A stretch of DNA of 64,000 nt from Ophelia neglecta (taxonomy: Eukaryota). This document shows, piece by piece, positions 2,274 to 64,000 of this stretch. Each line of letters starts with the position of its first letter. Position 1 is the stretch's first letter. A program made the translations under genes and the position numbers. Under the pieces are notes generated by a model, which ran no database searches, was not told the DNA's origin, and saw only the letters and a list, made by a program, of their open reading frames with translations. The stretch covers positions 52,638,001-52,702,000 of the forward strand of contig OZ260664.1 in assembly GCA_965285935.1 (NCBI GenBank). Reading direction: 5' to 3'.

Positions 2274-47026
<44,753 letters not shown>

Positions 47027-50000: not shown

Positions 50001-51438
50001 TGAAGATTTCAGGCACATCCTTTTGTAAATGAATGAGGAAATCCTTGTTGCATACCGGTAATATTAATATAGATAACCATGCAGATGAGATGGCACTGTT
50101 AGAGTAGTAACGTTAGATAAGACTAGAATGTTTTGCCCAATCACCACCGCTAATAAAAAGATAAACCCATTCATTTAATTCCTATCCGGTTGCTCAGCGA
50201 GACAATCTGTATTTACTGAACTTACGCCATTTTTGAGATTGGTGGTAAAAATATATTTCTCAAAATGCCTTATCTAATGCATATACAATAGACCAATACA
50301 ATATTTAGCCCAATATAGGTAATACTCAACTGAGGCTAAACACATCCGATTCTCACGAGCAATAAAGTGCATGCTTATTTTCATAAGTACAATCCACGCA
50401 AGAAGGCGAAATAATAACATGCAGACGAAGGAATTTTCTTTTTTATTTTTTTTTTCTATTTTGTTCACAAATACTTAAGCTACTTGTGTTGTACTCTCAG
50501 AAAAACCTCTTTGATGCATTTTCTTTCTTATTAATTAACAGATGAAGAGGGGAAGACCCCACAGTATTAATTGGCAAACTTGATTGAAATCATGTATCGT
50601 TTAAACATAAATCGTCGCATTATTTGTTGTATTGTAAAATACGACCTATACCGAATATATGTGGTAACCCAATGGAAACGTGATGTCATATATAACTGCT
50701 AAGTATATCAGGAGTTGTGTCTTGATGCAGCCGATTGATGGCATTCACATAGGAGGCGTCATTTCTCAGTATTTCCCCTTGGACTTCATCTTCACTCCTG
50801 TGTGAAAACGAATAAAACAATTTGTGAGATAACGATTGTATAAACTTGTCACAGTGTAAACCGGCCAGCTATTTCAAGCTTCTTATTATTGAGGTTCATA
50901 ATTATTGCGATTATAATTACGGGTTTTAATAGTTCAAGTTCAATTCATTATTAAAAGTCATTTCTGACAAATGTCACATATATATATAAACACATACCGG
51001 GGTAAAGACATATAATACATTGAAACACACATGCTACATTGTATATAAAAAAAACATATCAATGAGCGGATCTACAGCGTTATCCCACTCAACATCAGCA
51101 AATGCAGCATCCCCACAGCTCAAGAAGCCCTGTCATCCACCGCTGGAGGGAACTAACAATCGCTAGCCATGTATAACTAGTTAGAAAGGTTTCAGTCATA
51201 CACAGAAAACTTGTCTTGAGCTGACATAGAAGACATATTTGAATTAAGGGCTCAGCAAGTCCAGCCTTGTTTCTAAACAAAGCCCTTTTAGATTTTGACG
51301 GCCGTGCTGAAACTAATGGATCCACACTAGTCAATAAATAAGCAAACGTGTGTTGGAGAAAGATAACCAAATTTGAACACCTTGTCGAAACTCTTTCGGA
51401 AAAGTTTCTGCTAAACTATTATGAATTAATCAAATAGG

Positions 51439-51890: not shown

Positions 51891-54440
51891 AATGGGCCAA
51901 AAGTAATAAAGGCTTTTTATCATTTTAAAACAAACTATTAATAAAGAAACATTGTTTATACAATAGGCAGGAACATTCTTATTACTTCTTACGACCTTTG
52001 AATCTAATTTAGGCACATTCATTTATCTTTAGAGACATAGACAAGATTAATAATCCAATCTGTCAGAGACTTCTTGAATACAACGAACTATCTAATAATA
52101 TGCAAAATACATTTTAAACATATACTCTCTTATAGTTTCTTGATACACCAGCAAACCTACTGGAGAAGAGTGCTATCCGCTATGTTCACAAATACTGACA
52201 TCAACACGAATGAGAGCTTTCTCCAGTCTCTTAAAGCCTGCATGGCAGTAAATGATAGTAGCACGAAGTGCCCCATCTTGTTGCACTCAGCTGATGAAAA
52301 AGATCTACCGTCAAACTCGGCACGCAACAGAAGCAAATATACTAATAAAAACAGCACTTCACGATGAAATGTGGCGAGGGAGTCACATCAAGTACACCTA
52401 GTCATTCCAAGTAATATTATATCATTCAGTCTAACTGATTAAACACGAATGAAACGCCTTGGACAGCTGACAATCTAATGGAGGTGGAGGATGAAGGTCA
52501 CCAGCCATTAAAGGTGCACAAAGCAAGTAGCAGGAAATACTACTCAGAGGTAACGTGACAAGTCGATTGTTAATTTCCGCTCCACCTGGTGACATTACAC
52601 CACTCAGGTGAACACTATAAAGGTTATTAAACGCTAGCTTGTCACCTCGGTAACCGGTCAGATATTCACTGCACCCAAACTAACGGTGTTTATTATGCAC
52701 TTTTTTTTTCAAACTATTAAGTGCTGACAGGGATAGATACCCTATCTTGGCGGTCTTTACAAACTTGTTAGCAGTAAAGAAATGATGGTTTTCTCTATTG
52801 ACAGCTGTGTAAAATCCCCTTTATGTCCGATGTACAATTTCAATATTAGACAGTGTTGTTGTAAAAACCAGTGCCTATAATCTGTATAAACATATAGCCA
52901 GCTAGATTCATTTAAGTTCTTTCTATAACAATTTTAAGAGTTCAAATAACTCAATCCATTGAGCAGCGTTAAGATTTTCACATTCAGATGCACATGATAT
53001 CTCGGAAATTTATGCCACACATAAATGCTTTCCAGCCATGCGTATTGACACGCGGCGATCGCATCTAGATAGTTCCTATTTCGGTATTCCTTCCCGAACT
53101 TTCTACCCATCGGGCCTAGCCCTTGGCCTTCCTGGCAGCCGTGGGTGAAATGCCGCCCACCGCCACTCTAATTTCTCGGAATATTTGGCGAAACAGGCAT
53201 TTCTTTTCTAGGTGCTTTAGCACGCGGTGATCGTTTATAGATGGGTCATTTATGTTATTTATTCCCTAATTTCCTACTCCCACGGACCTCTCGGCCTTCC
53301 CGGCAGGGCTCGGATAGCTTTTTTCACCTCTATTAGATTTGCTTCAAGCCGCTTATATCTATTGGGGTTATGTTCCATACGTAATTACTGTCTCGAAACA
53401 TCGAAGAGTGAAGACAGCTTAAGTTTTTTCCAATAGGTCTTCTACAGACTATGCAGTTATGACCAGCTTTATAATCATTATTTTGACACGCATATTGTCA
53501 CAATTTTTTAGGCATTACAACGGAGATGTTATGTGGGTACTGTCTTTTTCTATTTTTCTGGTGTCATTTATAATCAAATAATGTATTTAAGAATTATACT
53601 TATGTTTGCTATCAATTGAAGTCATTGTTAATATTTCAGGAGATTTTCACTTGCTACAAGTTCGCAGAGAGTATACAATAAACGTACAGTTGACGTGGAA
53701 AGATGGAATAGGACCGACCATCAAACCAACTCAGAGAACAGTCTCAAAGAGGAGAGCCTGTGATTGGTTATGGCAGACTGTTTCCGGATATGCTGTGCGC
53801 GAATCCGTTAACAGTGAACAGACAGGATTAAAACTGTATAACACATCTATCTTGTTTATAACAAAAAACAAGACACGTGTTAGGCAAGCTTGCGAAGTTT
53901 TGTTCCAACATTAGGAATCTATAATGTAATATGTGTATTCTTTTTAATAAATGGTGTAATCGGAACATCAATTTCTCCCATGTCATTTTTTAAAGCAACA
54001 AATGAGTTCACTACTTCTCATTGCCAGTGATATTTAGAGGTCACTAAATGAACATTTTCATAGTATACTCCTATTCAGCCCGAGACATCCATATTAGGTG
54101 TCAAGGGCTGATATTTTATTGTTTGTGAATTGGATATATATTAATATCATAACCTTTTTATCATATGTTAAGCATTGATTAGAGTGGTTAATTGATTTTG
54201 CTTTGTCTGCTGGGCATCTAATCCCGTTTTTTAATAAAAGCGTCTATAATACCGGCAGACAAATAATAATCGGAAATAAAGACTAATCAATTGAACCAGC
54301 CCGCATGAATCAGCAACCATAGCATTATTTGTCTTTAAACTTTCAGATGTCGACATGTCTACTTACATATCACAGTTCTTTGTTCAACTTATCTGTCTTT
54401 AAACTTTAGGTCCCTTACTGTGTGCTGCCTACTTGCCTAC

Positions 54441-56500
54441 TTACATATCACAGTTCTGTGTAACAGGCAGAATATTTTCCGAGCTTTTCGCTGCTTGGCA
54501 GTCACTGGATTGCACGTCCTCGTCAGGGGCTTAAGGGAAATAAGTTGTCGGTTGACACAGTATCCGGTCCAAAAGAGCCCAAATTGTAATCGGTTCCAAA
54601 AAAGGGAGCAAATGCTACCAGGTAACGTTTGGAAGTTAACGATATGCCCTTTAAGAAATATATGATAGCACGGACTAAAAGTTTGTGCAAAAATAAATCA
54701 AACTAAACATTCGGATCTCCGAAAACATACTTATGTTATCAGCTCTAGTATGTGTCCTTCTTCTATGTTTGATCAAGTCTTTGCAACATGCTCCTGCACC
54801 CCAGCAACAGCAACATATGATCCAGAACATAGCAAACCCAACGGAGGTGATAAAAGCGATGGCCCATTTGGGAACACTGCAAGAATACTATACATATAAT
54901 ATGCATTGTGGTTTTTCTTCTACAGAAAATGGCATAAAGCGATAATTGGTTTATCATTTCAAACTACATACAAACAATTCCCCCTCTCCAAACACTATAG
55001 AATCATGTTTTTGCTGAAGAATTCGTTCTTGAATTAATGAATAATCCCAGCTAACATCAGCAGATAAAGGGTTGATGTTCAAATTCTATTGTTGAGCTCA
55101 GGATAAGCATAAGTGAGCTTTTTAATTGCATACGATTTCACATTTAAGATTTAATTTAAAGTACATGTTAATATTCCCAGCAAGTTATCTTGCTAAATAA
55201 ATATGTTTCGCAGCAAGTAAGCCCACAATGGCACTGATATCTCGTAATAGCCGATTTCCTTAACTTTAACCACCTGTGTTTGCATATCCGTGAGAGAATG
55301 GAAGATGCAAGGTATCAGTGTATCGACATCTCACATAAGATGACATTTTATCTCCTATACAAATGGGGTCATTGCAACTACTAATAAGAATGGTTTTGAA
55401 TACATTATATTCAAAGTGATATAATATGTTTGTATTATTGTTAAAACTACCGGTTTGGTCCCAATAGACCGACAAAAATATGAATTTGTCAAAAGAAGAG
55501 CAATAAGAGTGTCACGAAATTCAACCTAGAACATTGCCTGGAAATCTCTTCAGAACAGGCGCGTAAATGACATAGTTTAATGTCTATAAAAACGTTAATG
55601 GCATGGTTGCGTGCATTCCCTTGACCTTCCGATATGTGTACTCAATCGCAAACTCTTACAACGTTACAGGTCTCAAGAGGTCTTTTTTTTGTTAGAACAA
55701 CCTCCTGTAAAATCCAAAGTTGTCATTATGTTTACCATTGATATTTAATGTTGGTATGAATCTTACTTATTTTTCATTCCCATCAGGGGGCATTTCTATA
55801 CAATGTGCTGGAATATTAAGCGCATATATCAGAATAGAGGTAATTTATGACTTACCAGCAGAATATGTTATCACTACGCAATTAGCACATATAACTGATC
55901 TTTTTATTGTACTACCATATTTGTGATCTTTGGTCGACATGCATTTATTAGGCCCTATATGGCATATAATTAGTTAGATAGTAAGTCAGCTATACAAATA
56001 ACAATTATTGTTTCACTATATAGTTATTTTGTGTTATTTGCCCGAATTATTTGTTCCTAATGTATGAATTATATACTTGGTATAAGAAAATGAGCAAACC
56101 AACCAGTATGAGTCGTACAAGTGTACATATTATTCTCACCCTCATCAGTGAGAATGACGGACAAATGCTACACCTACCCCCCGATTTCCTCGAAACATTC
56201 CGGCGGACAAAATTCCCCGAGACATAAACACGGATCCTCTGATTGGTACACATTTTCCTGTCCTTTGGTATTAAGCGATCCTGCTATTACTGAAAAACAA
56301 TTTAGGACCAAAAGTGGAAATTGCGTATAGGTATCCTAGGCTTGTTTTATAGCTATAAACTTTATGTGTATATTTGAAATGTCTCTACAGGGAATTTCCA
56401 ACAATTTCAGTTCAGAATTTGGTAGATATGTCTACTCACCGGAACTAACAACACAACTGTAGATAAAAGATATATGGCCACAACAAGTGTTCTTGGTCAT
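54441..56500 (-). CDS. Uncharacterised small single-pass membrane protein, paralogue A; exons 56500-56440, 56289-56178, 54876-54731, 54529-54441
   Basis: GT-AG introns, phases 1/2/1. MTKNTCCGHISFIYSCVVSS|VIAGSLNTKGQENVYQSEDPCLCLGEFCPPECFEEIG|GVPKWAIAFITSVGFAMFWIICCCCWGAGACCKDLIKHRRRTHTRADNI|TPDEDVQSSDCQAAKSSENILPVTQNCDM*. Structure shared with paralogue B; last exon least certain. Confidence 0.75.
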
Positions 56501-58113
56501 TTTTTATACAAGTTCTGATAGCTTCCTGAAGCATTTTATTTCAAATGCTACGTAGAATAAGCAACCACACAATACTAAACATTAGATGTTACACTAACGC
56601 ATATACATGCGTAAATGTTACAATATAACAATTGTTGACACTTTGATGGTTCAATGTGAAGTTTGATTTAAAGCTTATAAATTAACACGTTGGCTGTTGA
56701 ATGTGTCATCAAACCATGTGTAAGACACGCATTCAATAACATTGAGAAGTAAACACACTTCCGATTGAAGATGTTGTTATGACTGGTCGCTAAGGAAAGC
56801 AGGTCATTTATTTCATCGAAGGTTCAATTAATCTCTAGATATCATGTTACAGATCTTTGGAATATACTACCTATAAAAGTAAAGAATCCAAAAACATTAA
56901 AATCACTGAGAACAAAGCCAGGCAATTTTTGCATAAAAAATAAATAAGTACAACGATTGAAAACTAAATTAAATCTTGCTATACTAAAAGCTTATCCCTA
57001 GAAGACTGGACAGGCGGCTGAAACGATGATTAATTGCAATATCGGATAGAAATATAGGTGGAACTATATTTTATTGATAGTTTTTGTATCGTATTTGTAT
57101 GACATTTCTGAAATCCCTATTATGAACATAGAAAATCAATTATTATTAGTAGTATTAGCAGAAGTATTACTAATATAAAAATTGAAGAATTAACAGAAAA
57201 ATAATGTGCGTAACAAACGGGTGCACGATGGGTTTCACGAGGGTAATAAATTAAGGGATACTCGGAGGTATGAGTCAGACAATGAGTTATTTATTGCACT
57301 TGAATTTACCAGCTTTATGGTACTCGTCTTTCCTTCGATTAAGATAACTTTTGACCCCGGGATCGGCTGGTCTATATACCAGATGCTAATGACACTATTT
57401 GTCGTTAATACAAAATGAGTTTAATAAAGGTAAATGAAATGTGAAAAAGATAGATTTTGGAGCTTCTAATATTATCTAGACCTTGTTATTTATGTGCCAA
57501 GGATAACCCGACAAACATAAACCAGTAAATTATACTGCTATACCAACTTTTATATATATACTATTTTTTTGAACGTCATTGTTATATTCAAATGCCCTTG
57601 CTACAAGCAATTGACAACGAATATTCGTGAAATAATAACTTCCGATGAGCTCATCAAACACAGCTCGTGAAAACCTGCCGGAAAAACGACATTAGTAGGC
57701 ATAATATCTGGCGTTCAATAATACAATAAATCTTGTCAGCAGGTGCAGTAGCTGATTTTGGCTCGATATTGGCAGATGGTACCTATAGTTATATTGCGGA
57801 TGTTGATTAGGTAGGCCATGTATCTACGCTCCGGGCTGCTTGGCAGGCCACGAATACTGGCTGATGTTCTCCCAAGCAAATTAAGCAGCAACATTTACAG
57901 ATCGCAGGCGTCCCTCACATTTACTTTAAAACTTCAGTGGGCCAAATCTCTTGGCAACCAGTCTACCAGTTCACCATTTCGTGTATAACAATAATTGCAC
58001 GTTTCACCTGGATAAAGCCATGTAAGAGGGACACTGGTGTTATTGTGGTACTTTTGCTGTCCTTGCAACTATTAAACAGTGTTACAAAGTTGCATTTCAG
58101 CCCAATTGGACTA

Positions 58114-58290
58114 CAGTGAAACCTGCCTTAAAGACCACCTCTATAATCAGACCACCTGACAATTCAGACCACTAATATGAAGACCAAAGTGTACCATTTC
58201 AACGTAAAATAACCTGTGTAAACAGTCCACCTCTCTAATCAGACCAGTATTATCAGTCCCTTTGGTTGCCTTAATTCACATGTTTCACTG
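58114..58290. mobile_element. 177 bp pogo/Tc1-mariner-type MITE, related to 32829-33007
   Basis: TA|CAGTGAAAC ... GTTTCACTG|TA; internal AGACCACC repeats. Confidence 0.8.
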
Positions 58291-59743
58291 TATTTGATAT
58301 TAAAATTAATTCTCCACTTGTTTGCATCAACCGTACACAAATCAATAAATTCCTGTAGCCCACAGAGCAGCAAACAATGATACGTCATCTACATACAAGT
58401 GAATTAAATAAATGATTACATAATGGTTTTTCGAGATATTTTCCTCTAGGGGGAGGGGGCTGGAAGGGAGCTTTTTTCAGATCCCTCTCCGCTGGCCAAA
58501 CCATTTCCCAAGAACCCTCATACCCCAGAAAAGACCCCCGTATTCCGGACGCGACTTTCACCAAAGCGTCCCATCACCATCTGAATCACCGAGTCACAGA
58601 GCGACGTTGTCTGCTCACTCACACTTGGGTCTTATTTGAGTCCTGATGGAATCGAACTTTAAAATATCATTGTCACCCTTGGTGTCTTAATTACTGGCCC
58701 AGGTTTCTGAACTCTGCACATTAAAACGATCATTTTCCCGATTCCCATATAAATAGTCCCGCAACCTGAAGTTGGAGGCTAACTAAAAAAGGAATAAATA
58801 TTATGCTCAAAAGTAACAAAATCTACCCGTCTTCATAACTCCATAAAACGCACATTAAAAACGCCCCATTCTGTATGTGAAACTAAATTTCTTTATAAAC
58901 TATACCTAATGTTTTTACTTCGAAAGGACATACCTTTGAGACATATACGTGATCATTCATTTATTTTTCATACAAATGCATATGGGTGTTGTTTGTAATA
59001 GAGTAAAAATTGTTTAGGTGTGTTATTTAAACAATTGTGATTATGAATTTTGTTGTATTATTCAATAATTAAATTAATTTGAGTTCAGATCAAAATTTCT
59101 CAACGTATTTAACAAATATAATGTTAGTCTTAAACGTGTAATAACACACTACACTTGCAAACATACACGAAAACCATTTAACTGGGTATATGCAGATTTC
59201 AACTTTATGTAGCAGAGTTAAGACGTCATTTAAAATGTGAGATCGAAATCGTTAATGAGAAAAAACACAAGCTTATCCTATCCAAGTTACTTGATGTCAT
59301 CAGTTATGTCTATTGTATAAGCGTTAGTGTCAAAATTGCCCATGGAACCACTGTCAGGGGTGGCGTGCTCGAACAATAATATTCTCTTCTTCACAGCATA
59401 TATATAAACCAAACAAATAGCACTTTGAAGCAAAGTGTTAGATGTAGGTGTTCAGTGTATTAGAGTTATTTAGCATTGTGCTTCTGGGAACTGTGTTCAT
59501 ATCAACTATAGACATTACGTGATTTCCAGGGTTCTTAGGTTTGATTCCATTGTCCAGTCTGTGTAAAAAGAAATAAATTTAAAGTAACAAAAAGCATAAT
59601 GTAAATTGCCAAAGTAAACGCGCGTGCTTCGTTATTGGCGCCACTGACAATTAGACATACGTTTTCTATAACATATGTGCTTATGTTTATTTTCCCTGTT
59701 GGTTATGTGTTTCTTAAAGTAGAAAAAAAATGTATATCGGAAC

Positions 59744-61235
59744 TTACAAATCGCTCGCCGGGGAAGCATCTACCGGTTGGATTTCTGTTAGGGTTGCATT
59801 TTTACTGCCACCAATATAAACGTCGACACCTTGAATAATCATTAAGATACACGGAACTTTATTTCAGCCACATATGCAATAGGTGGTATATGTCAATGCC
59901 GGTAATCCTACGGTGACTGGCATTGACTAAACTGAGCACTGAATGTACAATATATTTGGCCAAAATGGAGAAGAAGATGCTCACTTTGTAGGAAAATTAA
60001 GTGTCATTTAATCGTTGTTTAAAGAAAACCGAGGATATTCTGTATTTGAGGGAATCTGGTTGCTTCATTTATAAATTTCAAATACTTACATACACTGTAC
60101 GATAATTGTTTTCAATTCAATCAAAATTCAATTCAATTCAATTAACGCTTGACTGAAAATTTGAAATAGCAAACAAAGCACACCAACAACAAAATAATAG
60201 GGCACAGGAAATCTGCATATGTATAGAGGATTATTTATACCCGTGGTATCCGCTTCGGTGTGTCCTTTTCCATGTCTATGTTTGAAGCAGTCTTTAAATC
60301 CAGCTCCAGCACACCAACAGCAACAACATAAGATCCAGACAGCGGCAATGCCAACTGTGGTTAGGAGACCGATCGCCCATTTCGGAAACCTGGAAGTTAT
60401 CTTAAATATTGGAATGGTAAGGCAGACTTGAGTAGCTTCTAACTATTTCTTGCACTAGAACAGTCCTTTATATACCTTAAATGGATAATTTCCTTGAGAA
60501 CTCTGATATCCTTCGGTAGAAATAGTGACTGTCGTAATTATTCATTAATTTCTTGTTTGCAAACCTAAAATTCTGCAATCTTACATTCTGTTACAAATCT
60601 TATCACTATGACTTTTGTGGCCCTATACATCACTTTTTGTTGACTTAAACATGTTGACTGTATGTATAAGGCCTATAGGACTACTGCATTCTTAACAGGA
60701 ATAGATTTAGTCATCAGTGCTGAATACCTCCTCAAGTACCTTCAGGGCACCATGCACCCAGTGATCGGGTTTATACGGTATCAAAAGACAAATATGAATT
60801 ACCAATAAATTCGAACTAATGAAGCTTCTCCTCACTTGTCAAAGTGAAAAATTGATGCATTCATAAAATATAAGCAATAAGTACATAAAAGGTTTGCAAA
60901 ACCAGACATACCGCTAGATAACAAAAATAAGTACATGTTATCACGTACCCCCCGATCTCTTCATTGCATTCTGGGGGACAGAATTCCCCGAGACATAAAC
61001 ACGGATCTTCAGGCTGGTCTAGATTTCGCTGTCTAGAATTACCGGCTAAACCTGCTGCAAATGGGAAAATGGTGAAAGGACTGTCTAAAAGTAAGCTCAA
61101 GTAATATACTTATAAATATTGGTTCTATCAGCACAATATTTCAGACATTTTAGTAAGGTAGGTTATGTACTCACCGGAACCGAAAACATACATATACATC
61201 AAAACTAAGTGAACACGTAAAATCTTCCCGATCAT
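59744..61235 (-). CDS. Uncharacterised small single-pass membrane protein, paralogue B; exons 61235-61175, 61051-60949, 60389-60241, 59829-59744
   Basis: MIGKILRVHLVLMYMYVFGS|GLAGNSRQRNLDQPEDPCLCLGEFCPPECNEEIG|GFPKWAIGLLTTVGIAAVWILCCCCWCAGAGFKDCFKHRHGKGHTEADTT|GVDVYIGGSKNATLTEIQPVDASPASDL*. Same intron phases as A and the same 61 nt first coding exon. Confidence 0.75.
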
Positions 61236-61808
61236 TTTTAACATTTATATTCGCACAAATGTTTTATAAATTACGAATAAGCTTTAGACTCGGTAGGCCT
61301 TTTCCTTCAGGGTGTTATCTATTCTAAGAAATGTTAGGCCTTGGTTCTTGTTGATTATTTCAATTGGGTCTTTGAAAAATGGATGGACACATTTACGACC
61401 TAACTGTTATAATAAATATTAATTAACTGCTGGAAAAGATATATAGATACTTCAAATTCGCGACTAGGTCGTATACTTATGAATCATCCTAGATTCAGCC
61501 TTTGTTTCATACCAGTTAATTTCTAAAGGAGTGGCCTTAACCACTGAAGGACAGTACAATACTGTATGAAATGTGATATAACCCCGGGGATATGACAATC
61601 AGGAGCCATAAAGTAAACTGACTAAAGATGAGCCTTTTGCAATCAGCAATAAAGTGTATAATTATGAATACTTGTATTGCGAACAGAAAGAATTTACTAG
61701 TGACTGGTGTCACATTTTTCGCCTAAAAAAACAATGTACATGTGTAGTATTAGTGAGTTCACTGGCTTTTATATACATTCTAATTAATGGAATTTCGTAT
61801 TCGAAGAA

Positions 61809-62475: not shown

Positions 62476-62541
62476 TAACTCGCCGCGGCGAGATACTAAC
62501 TCGCCGCGGCGAGATACTAACTCGCCGCGGCGAGATACTAA
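62476..62541. repeat. Three exact 21 bp tandem repeats with a 14 bp perfect palindrome
   Basis: (TAACTCGCCGCGGCGAGATAC)x3 then TAA; core CTCGCCGCGGCGAG. Confidence 0.95.
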
Positions 62542-64000
62542 GGCCCCTTTTACACAGCACAGAGATCGTTGGGCGACCATTGAGCGATAAAAATTAACCC
62601 GATCTCGCATTCATCTTCTTACAGCCTCGAAAAAGCCGTTTCTGTGTAAATGTGGGAGATCCTTGTGCGCTCGTCGAGCGATCAAAAATTCAATTTTCGG
62701 CAACATTCATGGCGATCTAAAGAAACCTTTGAGCGACCTTGGCGCTCATTGAGCGCTCATTGAAAGATCCTTGAGAGATCCTTGAGAGATCAATGGAGAC
62801 CAAGCTTCCTGCAGCGACAATTGAGAGTTTGCTGAGCGCTCGTTGGGCGACCAAGAGAGATCATTGAGAGATCTACGGAGATCGCTGAAAGATCAGGTGC
62901 GACCATGAGAGATCACCGAAAGACCAGAAGAGATCCTTGAGGGATCATTAAGAGTTCCTTGGGAGACCAAGAAGGTTTCTGGGCGTTTCATGGGCGACAG
63001 GGACACCTCTGGGTATATATTTGAGAGGTTTCTGGTGTTCTTCAGTCAGTCTCTGGCAAGGTGTAGAAGAAGCAACGATTCCAGAAGGTCAAGATGAACA
63101 ACCAAGCTTTGGTACATGGTGCCATCCTACTATTCGCCTACTTCAGAGACCATATCAACCTACTTCATGATTGATTTTTAATATGGAAATATGTAATATA
63201 TAATGAGAGGTTATAATTATGACAGCAAGGAAGCGTTTGTTTGAATACTGACAGTCTGCTTTACAGAAAACAACGGCAGATTGTTGAATTCAAACAAAAA
63301 TCGCTCAAATATCTTAAGAGAGAATTCAAATCAAACGGTATCAGATACAAATGGTCATACAAAGGATGTCAGTCTCGATTCTCAGTGTGTTCTTTGCCCT
63401 GTTTCAGTTCATATTTGTATTGTTCAACATGTATAAGGGTAAAGTCACCATTAATTCCTGATAATACTAAGACTATATAGGTCACCAAGCACTTCTCCAG
63501 AACCAGATGGCCATTGCTCTCGTCAGAAGGAGGAGGCAGAGGCACGGAAGGAGACCAAGAACCTGGTGGGTCCACCTCTGGCTGAAACAAGCAAATATGC
63601 CACAGTTTGGTGACTACAGCCAGCTGATGCAAGAGCTGAGGCTGGAAGATGAGGGGGCATTTTTCAGCTACCTGTGCATGGAGCCGGCTTTGGTTGATAT
63701 GCTCCTGCAAAGGGTTCGACCTAGGATCAATAAAGCTAATACCAACTGGAGAGAAAGTCTTGGACCAGGGCTCAAGTTGGCTGTGACCCTCAGGTACCTT
63801 GCTACAGGTGACATGTATCCTGCCCTCCAATAGGCCTATTCGTATTCTGTTTCACATGGTGGAAAATTGAAAGATCGCTGAGATCAGTGGGAGATTGATG
63901 AGATCTTTGAGCGTTCCTTGAGAGTTGGTTGAGCGTTAGCTGAGCGTTTGCGGAGAGATCGGTTCTCTTGGCGATCGGTGAGCGATTGTTTTGGATCGAG
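62542..64000 (+). mobile_element. Internally deleted PIF/Harbinger DNA transposon (right end beyond the window)
   Basis: TAA then GGCCCC terminus; GAGATC/GAGCG subterminal repeats at about 62560-63000 and again from about 63870; transposase fragment between them. Confidence 0.8.
63507..63833 (+). pseudogene. Harbinger transposase N-terminal fragment
   Basis: WWVHLWL...GDYSQLMQELRLED...FFSYLCM...LLQRVRPRINKANTNWRESL...KLAVTLRYLATGD; stops before the DDE domain. Confidence 0.85.

What the first reader, a model, noticed from the sequence alone, without database searches (positions are those of the whole stretch)
54441..61235. Tandem pair of unrecognised small Cys-motif membrane protein genes
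Seen: two 4-exon genes with identical intron phases and 61 nt first coding exons. Each has an N-terminal leader (clearly hydrophobic in B, weaker in A), a short ectodomain with invariant EDPCLCLGEFCPPEC-x-EEIGG, one TM helix ending WIxCCCCW, a basic juxtamembrane patch and a short tail. The Cys motif is conserved while flanks diverge, implying selection. I do not recognise the family. The layout loosely recalls Shisa-like/WBP1-type adaptors with a palmitoylation cluster. They lie tail-to-tail with the mGluR, and any functional link is speculation.
Basis: partly seen in the sequence, partly recalled or inferred. Interest (0 to 1): 0.7.

Follow-up and report, generated by a model that had tools for sequence, protein, structure and literature searches.

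The report
Orphan four-cysteine membrane adaptor gene pair
Two neighbouring genes in a probable segmented-worm genome encode small predicted membrane proteins that share an almost unchanged four-cysteine outer motif and, through a likely fifth exon, a predicted scaffold-binding tail, so they likely anchor partner membrane proteins; no relatives turned up in the databases searched.

Summary
The two genes are in the sequence as intact tandem paralogues on the minus strand, with GT-AG introns in the same phases. The Cys motif is 20 of 21 residues identical despite 9 synonymous changes (dN/dS about 0.02), and the membrane helix is also constrained.

The four-exon model is probably incomplete. The products (171 and 172 aa) end S-Y-I and T-Y-I, a class I PDZ-type ligand.

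Only these two copies were found in the genome. No relative was found in Pfam, the PDB, 5.8 billion or 1.84 billion proteins, or metagenome contigs, although one as distant as A is from B should have scored. Shisa/WBP1 membership fails: four rather than six Cys, and no PY motif.

Best reading: a palmitoylated type I adaptor or auxiliary subunit, built like MAP17 or CKAMP, that grips a partner with its Cys knob and helix and ties it to a PDZ scaffold. Splicing, expression and partner are untested, and nothing links it to the mGluR beyond position.

The parts
61175..61235 (-). Gene B exon 1 (61 nt coding; alternative in-frame ATG at 61244); predicted signal peptide or leader
   Evidence: donor CCG|GTGAGT
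60949..61054 (-). Gene B exon 2: variable linker, then the four-Cys motif C-x-C-x4-C-x3-C (about 61010-60949)
   Evidence: haplotype changes fall in the linker (S27H, R28M), none listed in the motif
60241..60389 (-). Gene B exon 3: membrane helix PKWAI...WILCCCCW (60385-60314) and basic juxtamembrane patch
   Evidence: AlphaFold helix over residues 4-39 of the 51-aa piece, pLDDT 72-82 over the first 20
59748..59829 (-). Gene B exon 4 (tail), ending at a GTAAGT donor that holds an in-frame TAA
   Evidence: 4 synonymous vs 2 non-synonymous haplotype changes
59438..59558 (-). Gene B predicted exon 5, ending T-Y-I-stop (class I PDZ-type ligand)
   Evidence: splicing not shown by RNA
56440..56500 (-). 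Gene A exon 1 (61 nt coding; in-frame stop just upstream); predicted leader
   Evidence: DNA identity to B exon 1 0.62, above all 300 shuffles
56178..56289 (-). Gene A exon 2: linker and four-Cys motif (about 56239-56178)
54731..54876 (-). Gene A exon 3: membrane helix PKWAI...WIICCCCW (54872-54801) and basic patch
54445..54529 (-).
54339..54383 (-). 45-nt tandem copy of the end of A exon 4 with a second GTAAGT donor, 78 nt downstream
   Evidence: family D6
50686..50797 (-).
   Evidence: best of 16 candidates on both acceptor identity (16/20) and last-30-nt identity (18/30) to B exon 5; 0 of 878 null candidates reach either value
45617..47026 (+). Last open frame of the neighbouring group I-like mGluR, ending S-D-V; its stop is 3.66 kb from the predicted A stop (context, not part of the pair)

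Best explanation
A and B are two intact tandem paralogues that encode predicted small single-pass membrane proteins, which likely work as palmitoylated adaptors or auxiliary subunits: a four-cysteine outer knob and the membrane helix would grip a partner membrane protein, and a C-terminal S/T-Y-I would tie the complex to a PDZ scaffold. SHOWN: open frames, canonical splice sites in matching phases, strong purifying selection on the Cys motif and helix, charge asymmetry around the helix, matching fifth-exon candidates. INFERRED: N-out topology (positive-inside rule, established knowledge); two disulfides in the knob, possibly nested, from a low-confidence hairpin model; palmitoylation of the CCCC run at the inner end of the helix (shown for the similarly built WBP1L, PMC6991692); use of exon 5; PDZ binding. 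UNTESTED: expression, the partner, and whether a short PDZ-less form arises when intron 4 is retained, which would stop at the TAA inside the donor.
For: Frames and phases. Selection is graded like a binding surface: JC-corrected dN/dS 0.02 for the Cys motif, 0.13 for the helix, 0.30 juxtamembrane, 0.28 overall; uncorrected pN/pS 0.06, 0.27, 0.49, with Fisher p 1.4e-6, 3.4e-4, 0.049. In a second haplotype, 11 of 11 listed indel or skip events in B avoid the 519 coding nt of 1891 (p about 0.03), and of 11 changed codons among the 40 of 76 rows shown, 6 are synonymous and none alters the Cys motif or helix. Small residues are kept in the helix (T66, G69, G/A63-T/S67-A71). Exon 5: GTAAGT at the same place in both genes (TAA is followed by GT in 395 of 7954 flank sites); the A candidate at 50797 is best of 16 on acceptor and stop-anchored identity, 0 of 878 null candidates reach either; 1 of 878 null candidates ends [ST]YI; the best local DNA alignment of B exon 5 in 7.3 kb downstream of A runs acceptor to stop over this candidate. 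Class I consensus S/T-X-hydrophobic-COOH: bioRxiv 10.64898/2026.07.07.736929, passage. Same layout works this way in MAP17/SMIM24 (PMC7462921 passages) and Shisa9/CKAMP44 (PMC6502786 passage).
Against: Exons 4 and 5 as wholes are no more alike than shuffles (151 and 103 of 300 shuffles reach them). The exon-5 local alignment score is reached by 9 of 40 null stretches, and the protein end-score ranks third of 112 pairs and is reached by 9 of 817 null candidates; selection on the last 10 codons is not significant (p 0.07). I chose the B exon 5 candidate and the 20/30-nt test windows after seeing the data. An AATAAA lies in B intron 4 at 59691, so the short form may be real. The leader exon shows no constraint. 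The knob model is low confidence (pLDDT 59.7). A conserved knob fits a soluble ligand as well as a membrane partner. In MAP17 the PDZ motif is dispensable for activating SGLT2.
Confidence: 0.5

Rival explanations
1. A minimal receptor: the four-Cys knob binds a soluble or opposing-cell ligand, as single-cysteine-rich-domain TNF receptors do (BAFF-R, Fn14; recalled, no call), and the tail signals or is only anchored.
For: The knob is the most constrained part (dN/dS 0.02) and sits on the predicted outer side; A has one Y-V-N site of Grb2-SH2 type (motif meaning recalled).
Against: The Y-x-N site is absent from B; no conserved YxxPhi, dileucine or PY motif in the tails. No Pfam or PDB match to any receptor domain. 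The knob ends a few residues from the membrane, and the helix is also strongly conserved, which suits in-membrane contacts.
Confidence: 0.2
2. A self-associating junction or adhesion protein: A and B form disulfide-linked homo- or heterodimers through the C-x-C and small-residue helix faces and are clustered by a PDZ scaffold.
For: Near-identity of the knob between old paralogues (dS about 1.5) would follow if A and B must pair with each other; small-xxx-small spacing is kept in the helix.
Against: An even number of outer Cys can pair within the chain, and the hairpin in the weak model places two of them across from each other. The ectodomain (about 35 residues) is short for cell-cell contact.
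Confidence: 0.13
3. The four-exon forms (135 and 133 aa) are the main products, and the proteins are very divergent Shisa-like trafficking adaptors with no PDZ role.
For: Both four-exon forms are open and end at equivalent TAA codons; AATAAA in B intron 4; a duplicated donor in A would keep the stop; best named Atlas look-alike is TMEM52 at 0.82, a lead only.
Against: Exon-5 candidates match each other beyond 878 null candidates. Six-Cys pattern and PY motifs absent. No Pfam match.
Confidence: 0.1
4. One or both copies are silent or decaying, and the conservation reflects recent gene conversion of exon 2 rather than function.
For: Eight successive codons in the Cys motif are identical at DNA level between A and B; leader exon unconstrained.
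Against: The same motif still holds 9 synonymous differences, exon 3 is constrained too, frames are intact over five exons, and indels avoid exons.
Confidence: 0.06

Closest known systems
Shisa-like / STMC6 adaptors (WBP1, WBP1L, VOPP1, TMEM92, CYYR1); PMC5578492 and PMC6991692, passages read; Pei and Grishin 2012 not held, not read
   Same: Short single-pass protein, small Cys-containing outer part, Cys cluster at the inner end of the helix (palmitoylation shown for WBP1L).
   Different: Four outer Cys spaced C-x-C-x4-C-x3-C instead of six in C*C*CC*CC; no [L/P]PxY motif; tail only 3-5% Pro; no Pfam match.
MAP17 (PDZK1IP1) and SMIM24/MARDI; PMC7462921, passages read
   Same: Small membrane protein with a C-terminal PDZ-binding motif that acts as accessory subunit of another membrane protein.
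   Different: No sequence match in Pfam or PDB; the Cys knob and CCCC run are not known from MAP17 (recalled); partner here unknown.
CKAMP44/Shisa9 and Shisa6-8, AMPA-receptor auxiliary subunits; PMC6502786 and PMC7653359, passages read
   Same: Cys-rich outer part, one helix, binds a PDZ scaffold (PSD-95) and a receptor.
   Different: Shisa Cys pattern and Pro-rich tail absent; much smaller; PMC7653359 places the origin of that role in vertebrates, so any likeness would be convergent.
TMEM52 (PF14979), Smim3, stannin: ESM Atlas look-alikes of the membrane exon (0.82, 0.80, 0.79)
   Same: Single helix followed by Cys and basic residues.
   Different: Scores under 0.9, which shuffled proteins reach a third of the time; only 1 of the ten best named hits shares a family; no Pfam match.
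Antistasin module (PF02822)
   Same: Contains a C-x4-C-x3-C run preceded by C-x-C of the previous repeat; abundant in this genome (150 matches scored).
   Different: No C-x-C-x4-C-x3-C in 25 antistasin loci examined, and the downstream x10-C-x2-C-x-C cysteines are missing from A and B.

Membership tests
Shisa-like / STMC6 | Six outer Cys in a C*C*CC*CC pattern (PMC5578492, PMC6991692 passages) | tested here: not met
   Four Cys, no adjacent pair, between leader and helix in both proteins
Shisa-like / STMC6 | [L/P]PxY motifs and Pro-rich cytoplasmic tail | tested here: not met
   0 motifs in A and B; tail Pro 3.4% and 5.5%
Shisa-like / STMC6 | Short single-pass protein with Cys at the inner end of the helix | tested here: met
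   (prediction only)
Shisa-like / STMC6 | Profile match to a family model | tested here: not met
   0 Pfam families at E<=10 for 6 of the 10 exon pieces (B exons 2-5, A exons 2-3); pieces were scanned separately, which lowers sensitivity
MAP17/SMIM24 | C-terminal PDZ-binding motif | tested here: inconclusive
   S-Y-I and T-Y-I fit the class I consensus but depend on exon 5 being spliced; binding untested
MAP17/SMIM24 | Sequence match to the family | tested here: not met
MAP17/SMIM24 | Activates or binds a transporter or receptor | not testable with these tools
   needs co-expression or pull-down
Antistasin module | Six-Cys spacing C-x4-C-x3-C-x10-C-x2-C-x-C | tested here: not met
Single-CRD TNF receptors (BAFF-R, Fn14 type; recalled) | TNFR cysteine-rich domain and TRAF-binding tail motif | tested here: inconclusive
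   No Pfam or PDB sequence match; the knob model was too weak for a fold search to mean much; TRAF motifs not scanned
CYSTM tail-anchored module (recalled) | Cys-rich helix at the very C-terminus | tested here: not met
   52-91 residues follow the CCCCW in either model; no Pfam match

The most novel reading that the evidence does not exclude
A new, annelid-restricted family of auxiliary subunits for the neighbouring group I metabotropic glutamate receptor: the four-Cys knob and helix dock on the receptor, both tails (S/T-Y-I and S-D-V) bind the same PDZ scaffold, and retention of intron 4 switches the anchor off.
Probability: 0.05. Interest if true: 0.75.

Novelty: new variant of a known kind. 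Interest (0 to 1): 0.38.

Why it matters
Small single-pass accessory proteins such as MAP17 and the CKAMPs were found late, because they are short and lack recognisable domains, yet they can change a partner's activity by two orders of magnitude (MAP17 on SGLT2, PMC7462921). This pair has that layout with a 12-residue four-Cys knob that matched nothing in the libraries searched, so it is a candidate for an independently evolved accessory subunit in a poorly sampled animal group. The corrected five-exon model gives two direct handles, the knob and the PDZ-type tail. Until a partner is found it is one of many lineage-restricted small membrane proteins, which limits the interest.

Tried and rejected
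RNA: no RNA holder listed (3 runs, one sample, one study). The runs laid cover introns and show no spliced joints, so they behave as DNA. No evidence on expression either way.

Homologue searches, all blank: B exon 3 against longer proteins, 2 candidates, 0 at E<=10; exon 2 alignment, 199 candidates, 0; exon 3 alignment, 56 candidates, 0; exon 2 profile against 1.84 billion representatives, 0 at E<=0.001. Control: B exon 2 and exon 3 score 46 and 52 bits against A, E about 1e-7 to 1e-8 at these library sizes, so relatives as distant as A is from B would have shown; more distant ones could be missed. Full spliced proteins were not searched outside the script machine, and 'near' and 'shorter' length ranges were not searched.

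PDB by sequence: 3 and 4 hits at E 0.87-3, all chance-like. Foldseek on the knob model: 0 matches. Metagenome scan: 1 of 71 stretches passed, L027, which lies in a prokaryotic gene read in another frame; rejected. Second Atlas search not available. Complex prediction (helix homodimer) not available: no verdict.

More copies in the genome: exon 2 and exon 3 queries from both genes and two degenerate patterns return only A and B. Extra weak hits rejected: L005, a mucin-stalk protein sharing only the PxWAI helix cap; L006, L025 and L057, chance or antisense to a Thr-rich frame. No further copy in 150 kb of flanks.

Antistasin origin of the knob rejected. An alternative A exon 4 from an acceptor near 54615 was set aside: a haplotype has a 1-nt insertion at 54541 inside it. 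Type II topology (tail outside, where the N-x-S/T sites lie) rejected on charge asymmetry.

Papers: no paper held all of single-pass/palmitoylat/PDZ-binding motif/annelid/cysteine-rich; none held 4 of 5 annelid, lineage-specific, single transmembrane, PDZ, tandem duplication terms; a search with five short motifs gave 4 papers, all for PKWAI alone and unrelated by title. Pei and Grishin 2012 is not held. Earlier findings: nothing near, by sequence, by words or in relatives.
Full report
Setting. The window is G000:C7:52638001-52702000 of a 762-Mb animal genome. The genome holds two matches over the cut-off to the erythrocruorin linker family PF16915, which from established knowledge points to an annelid; two earlier unchecked notes on this genome say the same. 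Most of the window is a plus-strand mGluR whose seven-helix exon matches mGlu5 and mGlu1 best (E 1e-111, against 1e-80 for mGlu2) and whose last frame ends at 47026.

Gene models. Six-frame reading and exon joining by coordinates (after two runs with boundary slips) give gene B at 61235-61175, 61054-60949, 60389-60241, 59829-59748, 59558-59438 (172 aa) and gene A at 56500-56440, 56289-56178, 54876-54731, 54529-54445, 50797-50686 (171 aa). All 8 introns are GT-AG and the phases are 1,2,1,2 in both. Of 166 aligned codons 73 give identical residues.

More than chance. Synonymous sites between A and B are near saturation (pS 0.65, dS about 1.5) while the Cys motif keeps 20 of 21 residues with 9 synonymous changes. 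Uncorrected pN/pS is 0.06 for the motif (CI 0.00-0.19), 0.27 for the helix (0.11-0.54), 0.49 for the juxtamembrane part (0.20-1.18), 0.62 for the gappy tail (0.46-0.82; alignment uncertain) and 1.32 for the leader (0.55-5.72). Contigs from one DNA sample carry a second haplotype. Over gene B, all 11 listed indel or skip events lie in introns (p about 0.03 if independent). Among the 40 of 76 substitution rows shown, 13 fall in exons and change 11 codons: 6 synonymous, 5 not, none of the latter in the motif or helix.

The fifth exon. In both genes the TAA taken as the stop is part of a GTAAGT donor at the equivalent place; in the flanks, TAA is followed by GT in 395 of 7954 cases. B has a strong acceptor 189 nt further on, opening a frame that ends T-Y-I-stop. 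Among 16 phase-matched acceptor candidates in the 7.3 kb downstream of A, the one at 50797 is best on acceptor identity to B (16 of 20) and on identity of the last 30 nt (18 of 30); none of 878 null candidates from 150 kb of flanks reaches either value. It ends S-Y-I-stop, with synonymous differences at the last Leu, Tyr and Ile codons; 1 of 878 null candidates ends [ST]YI, 33 end [ST]x[VIL]. Against this: exon 5 as a whole is no more alike than shuffles (103 of 300); the local alignment score is reached by 9 of 40 null stretches, though the best alignment does fall acceptor-to-stop on this candidate; the protein end-score ranks third of 112 pairs; selection on the last 10 codons gives p 0.07; and I fixed the test windows after seeing the data. 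I put exon 5 at about 85%. A short form is also possible: B intron 4 holds an AATAAA at 59691, and A has a 45-nt duplication that repeats the donor 78 nt downstream.

Anatomy. A leader of about 20 residues (hydropathy about equal in A and B; no signal-peptide predictor was available) is followed by a variable linker, the knob C-x-C-x4-C-x3-C, an acidic step, one helix and a CCCCW run. The 15 residues before the helix hold 0 basic and 4 acidic residues, the 20 after it 4-6 basic, which by the positive-inside rule puts the knob outside and the CCCC at the inner face. AlphaFold on a two-sequence alignment gives one continuous helix through the juxtamembrane part (pLDDT 72-82 over the first 20 residues, mean 63). 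For the knob it gives only a weak model (mean 59.7) with a bridge between Leu and Phe on either side of Gly-Glu; such a hairpin would favour nested disulfides, which is inference from a poor model. The tails have no PY, conserved YxxPhi or dileucine motif; the one shared feature is the last tripeptide, which fits the class I PDZ consensus S/T-X-hydrophobic-COOH (bioRxiv 10.64898/2026.07.07.736929, passages).

Relatives. Only A and B answer exon and pattern searches of the genome and of 150 kb of flanks. Pfam gave 0 families for 6 exon pieces. Three searches of the 5.8-billion set gave 0 hits at E<=10 from 2, 199 and 56 candidates, and HMMER over 1.84 billion representatives gave 0 at E<=0.001. 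The PDB gave only chance-level hits by sequence and none by fold. The metagenome scan gave one false hit. A relative as distant as A is from B would score E about 1e-7 or better at these library sizes. The blank therefore means no close relative is in these collections; it does not exclude distant ones, because only single exons of 40-51 residues were used and I ran no control on how well this animal's lineage is sampled.

How it most likely works. Constraint is highest on the knob and the helix, falls through the tail and rises again at the last residues. That is the pattern expected of an accessory protein that touches one conserved membrane partner and is parked by a PDZ scaffold, with acylation of the CCCC run steadying it in the membrane. 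MAP17 and SMIM24 act this way on SGLT2 and carry a C-terminal PDZ motif, though that motif is dispensable for activation (PMC7462921, passages). Shisa9/CKAMP44 binds AMPA receptors and PSD-95 (PMC6502786, passage). WBP1L is palmitoylated and has a small disulfide-held outer domain (PMC6991692, passages). I give this reading 0.5, a minimal ligand receptor 0.2, a self-pairing junction protein 0.13, four-exon Shisa-like adaptors 0.1, and silent copies 0.06.

Membership. Shisa-like proteins are defined by six Cys in C*C*CC*CC and by PY motifs (PMC5578492 and PMC6991692, passages; the original paper was not held). Both features are absent, so A and B are not members, although they are built alike. 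Antistasin spacing was tested on 25 loci of this genome and does not fit. TMEM52, Smim3 and stannin appear as Atlas look-alikes below 0.9 and are leads only. PMC7653359 (passages) places the AMPA-auxiliary role of Shisa6-9 in vertebrates, so a similar role here would be convergent.

The mGluR. With exon 5, the A stop lies 3.66 kb from the mGluR stop, and both end in class I PDZ-type tripeptides. In animals, neighbourhood alone says little about function (established knowledge); the other neighbours include an adaptin beta subunit and a zinc-dehydrogenase-fold gene. I give a direct link about 5%.

Verdict. Real, old, selected paralogues with a corrected five-exon structure, no relative found, and a familiar adaptor layout carrying an unmatched four-Cys knob. 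Not found in print by three searches, which cover only open-licence PubMed Central and bioRxiv text and no supplements. New variant of a known kind; interest 0.38.

Noticed in passing
window 54339-54383 and 54417-54461: 45-nt tandem duplication of the end of A exon 4 with its GTAAGT donor; use of the second donor would keep the TAA and give the short form.
   Followed up: partly
window 59691 (minus strand): AATAAA inside B intron 4, a possible intronic polyadenylation site for a PDZ-less form.
   Followed up: no
window 56214-56236 and 60985-61007 (approximate): Eight successive codons of the Cys motif are identical at DNA level in A and B despite saturated synonymous sites elsewhere: chance, local gene conversion or a splicing element.
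   Followed up: no
window 2274-47026 (+): Group I-like mGluR with a 469-aa last open frame that has no Pfam match and ends S-D-V.
   Followed up: partly
window 16197-20378 (+): DIRS-type tyrosine-recombinase retrotransposon inside an mGluR intron: gag-like frame, RT/RNase H/Dam-like frame and integrase-family frame, all open.
   Followed up: partly
window 58112-58251: Very high-copy short repeat between genes A and B (summed contig depth above 370,000).
   Followed up: no
window 62490-64000: Repeat-rich stretch with a 120-aa frame at 63471-63833 that looks like a PIF/Harbinger transposase fragment (recalled likeness; no Pfam match at E<=0.01).
   Followed up: partly
window 54885-55306: Two haplotypes in the DNA sample differ at 53 of about 422 bases in A intron 2, very high heterozygosity.
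   Followed up: no
L005 1453-2826 and 636-1415 (minus): Unrelated type I membrane protein with a long Ser/Thr mucin stalk and a PxWAI helix cap ending in CC.
   Followed up: partly
L007 2949-4106 (+): 386-aa single open frame just beyond the window with an N-terminal hydrophobic stretch and no Pfam match.
   Followed up: partly
G000:C1 71313553-71331790, 68306914-68318881, 112560225-112565945: Very long antistasin repeat arrays, one in a 2004-aa open frame.
   Followed up: no
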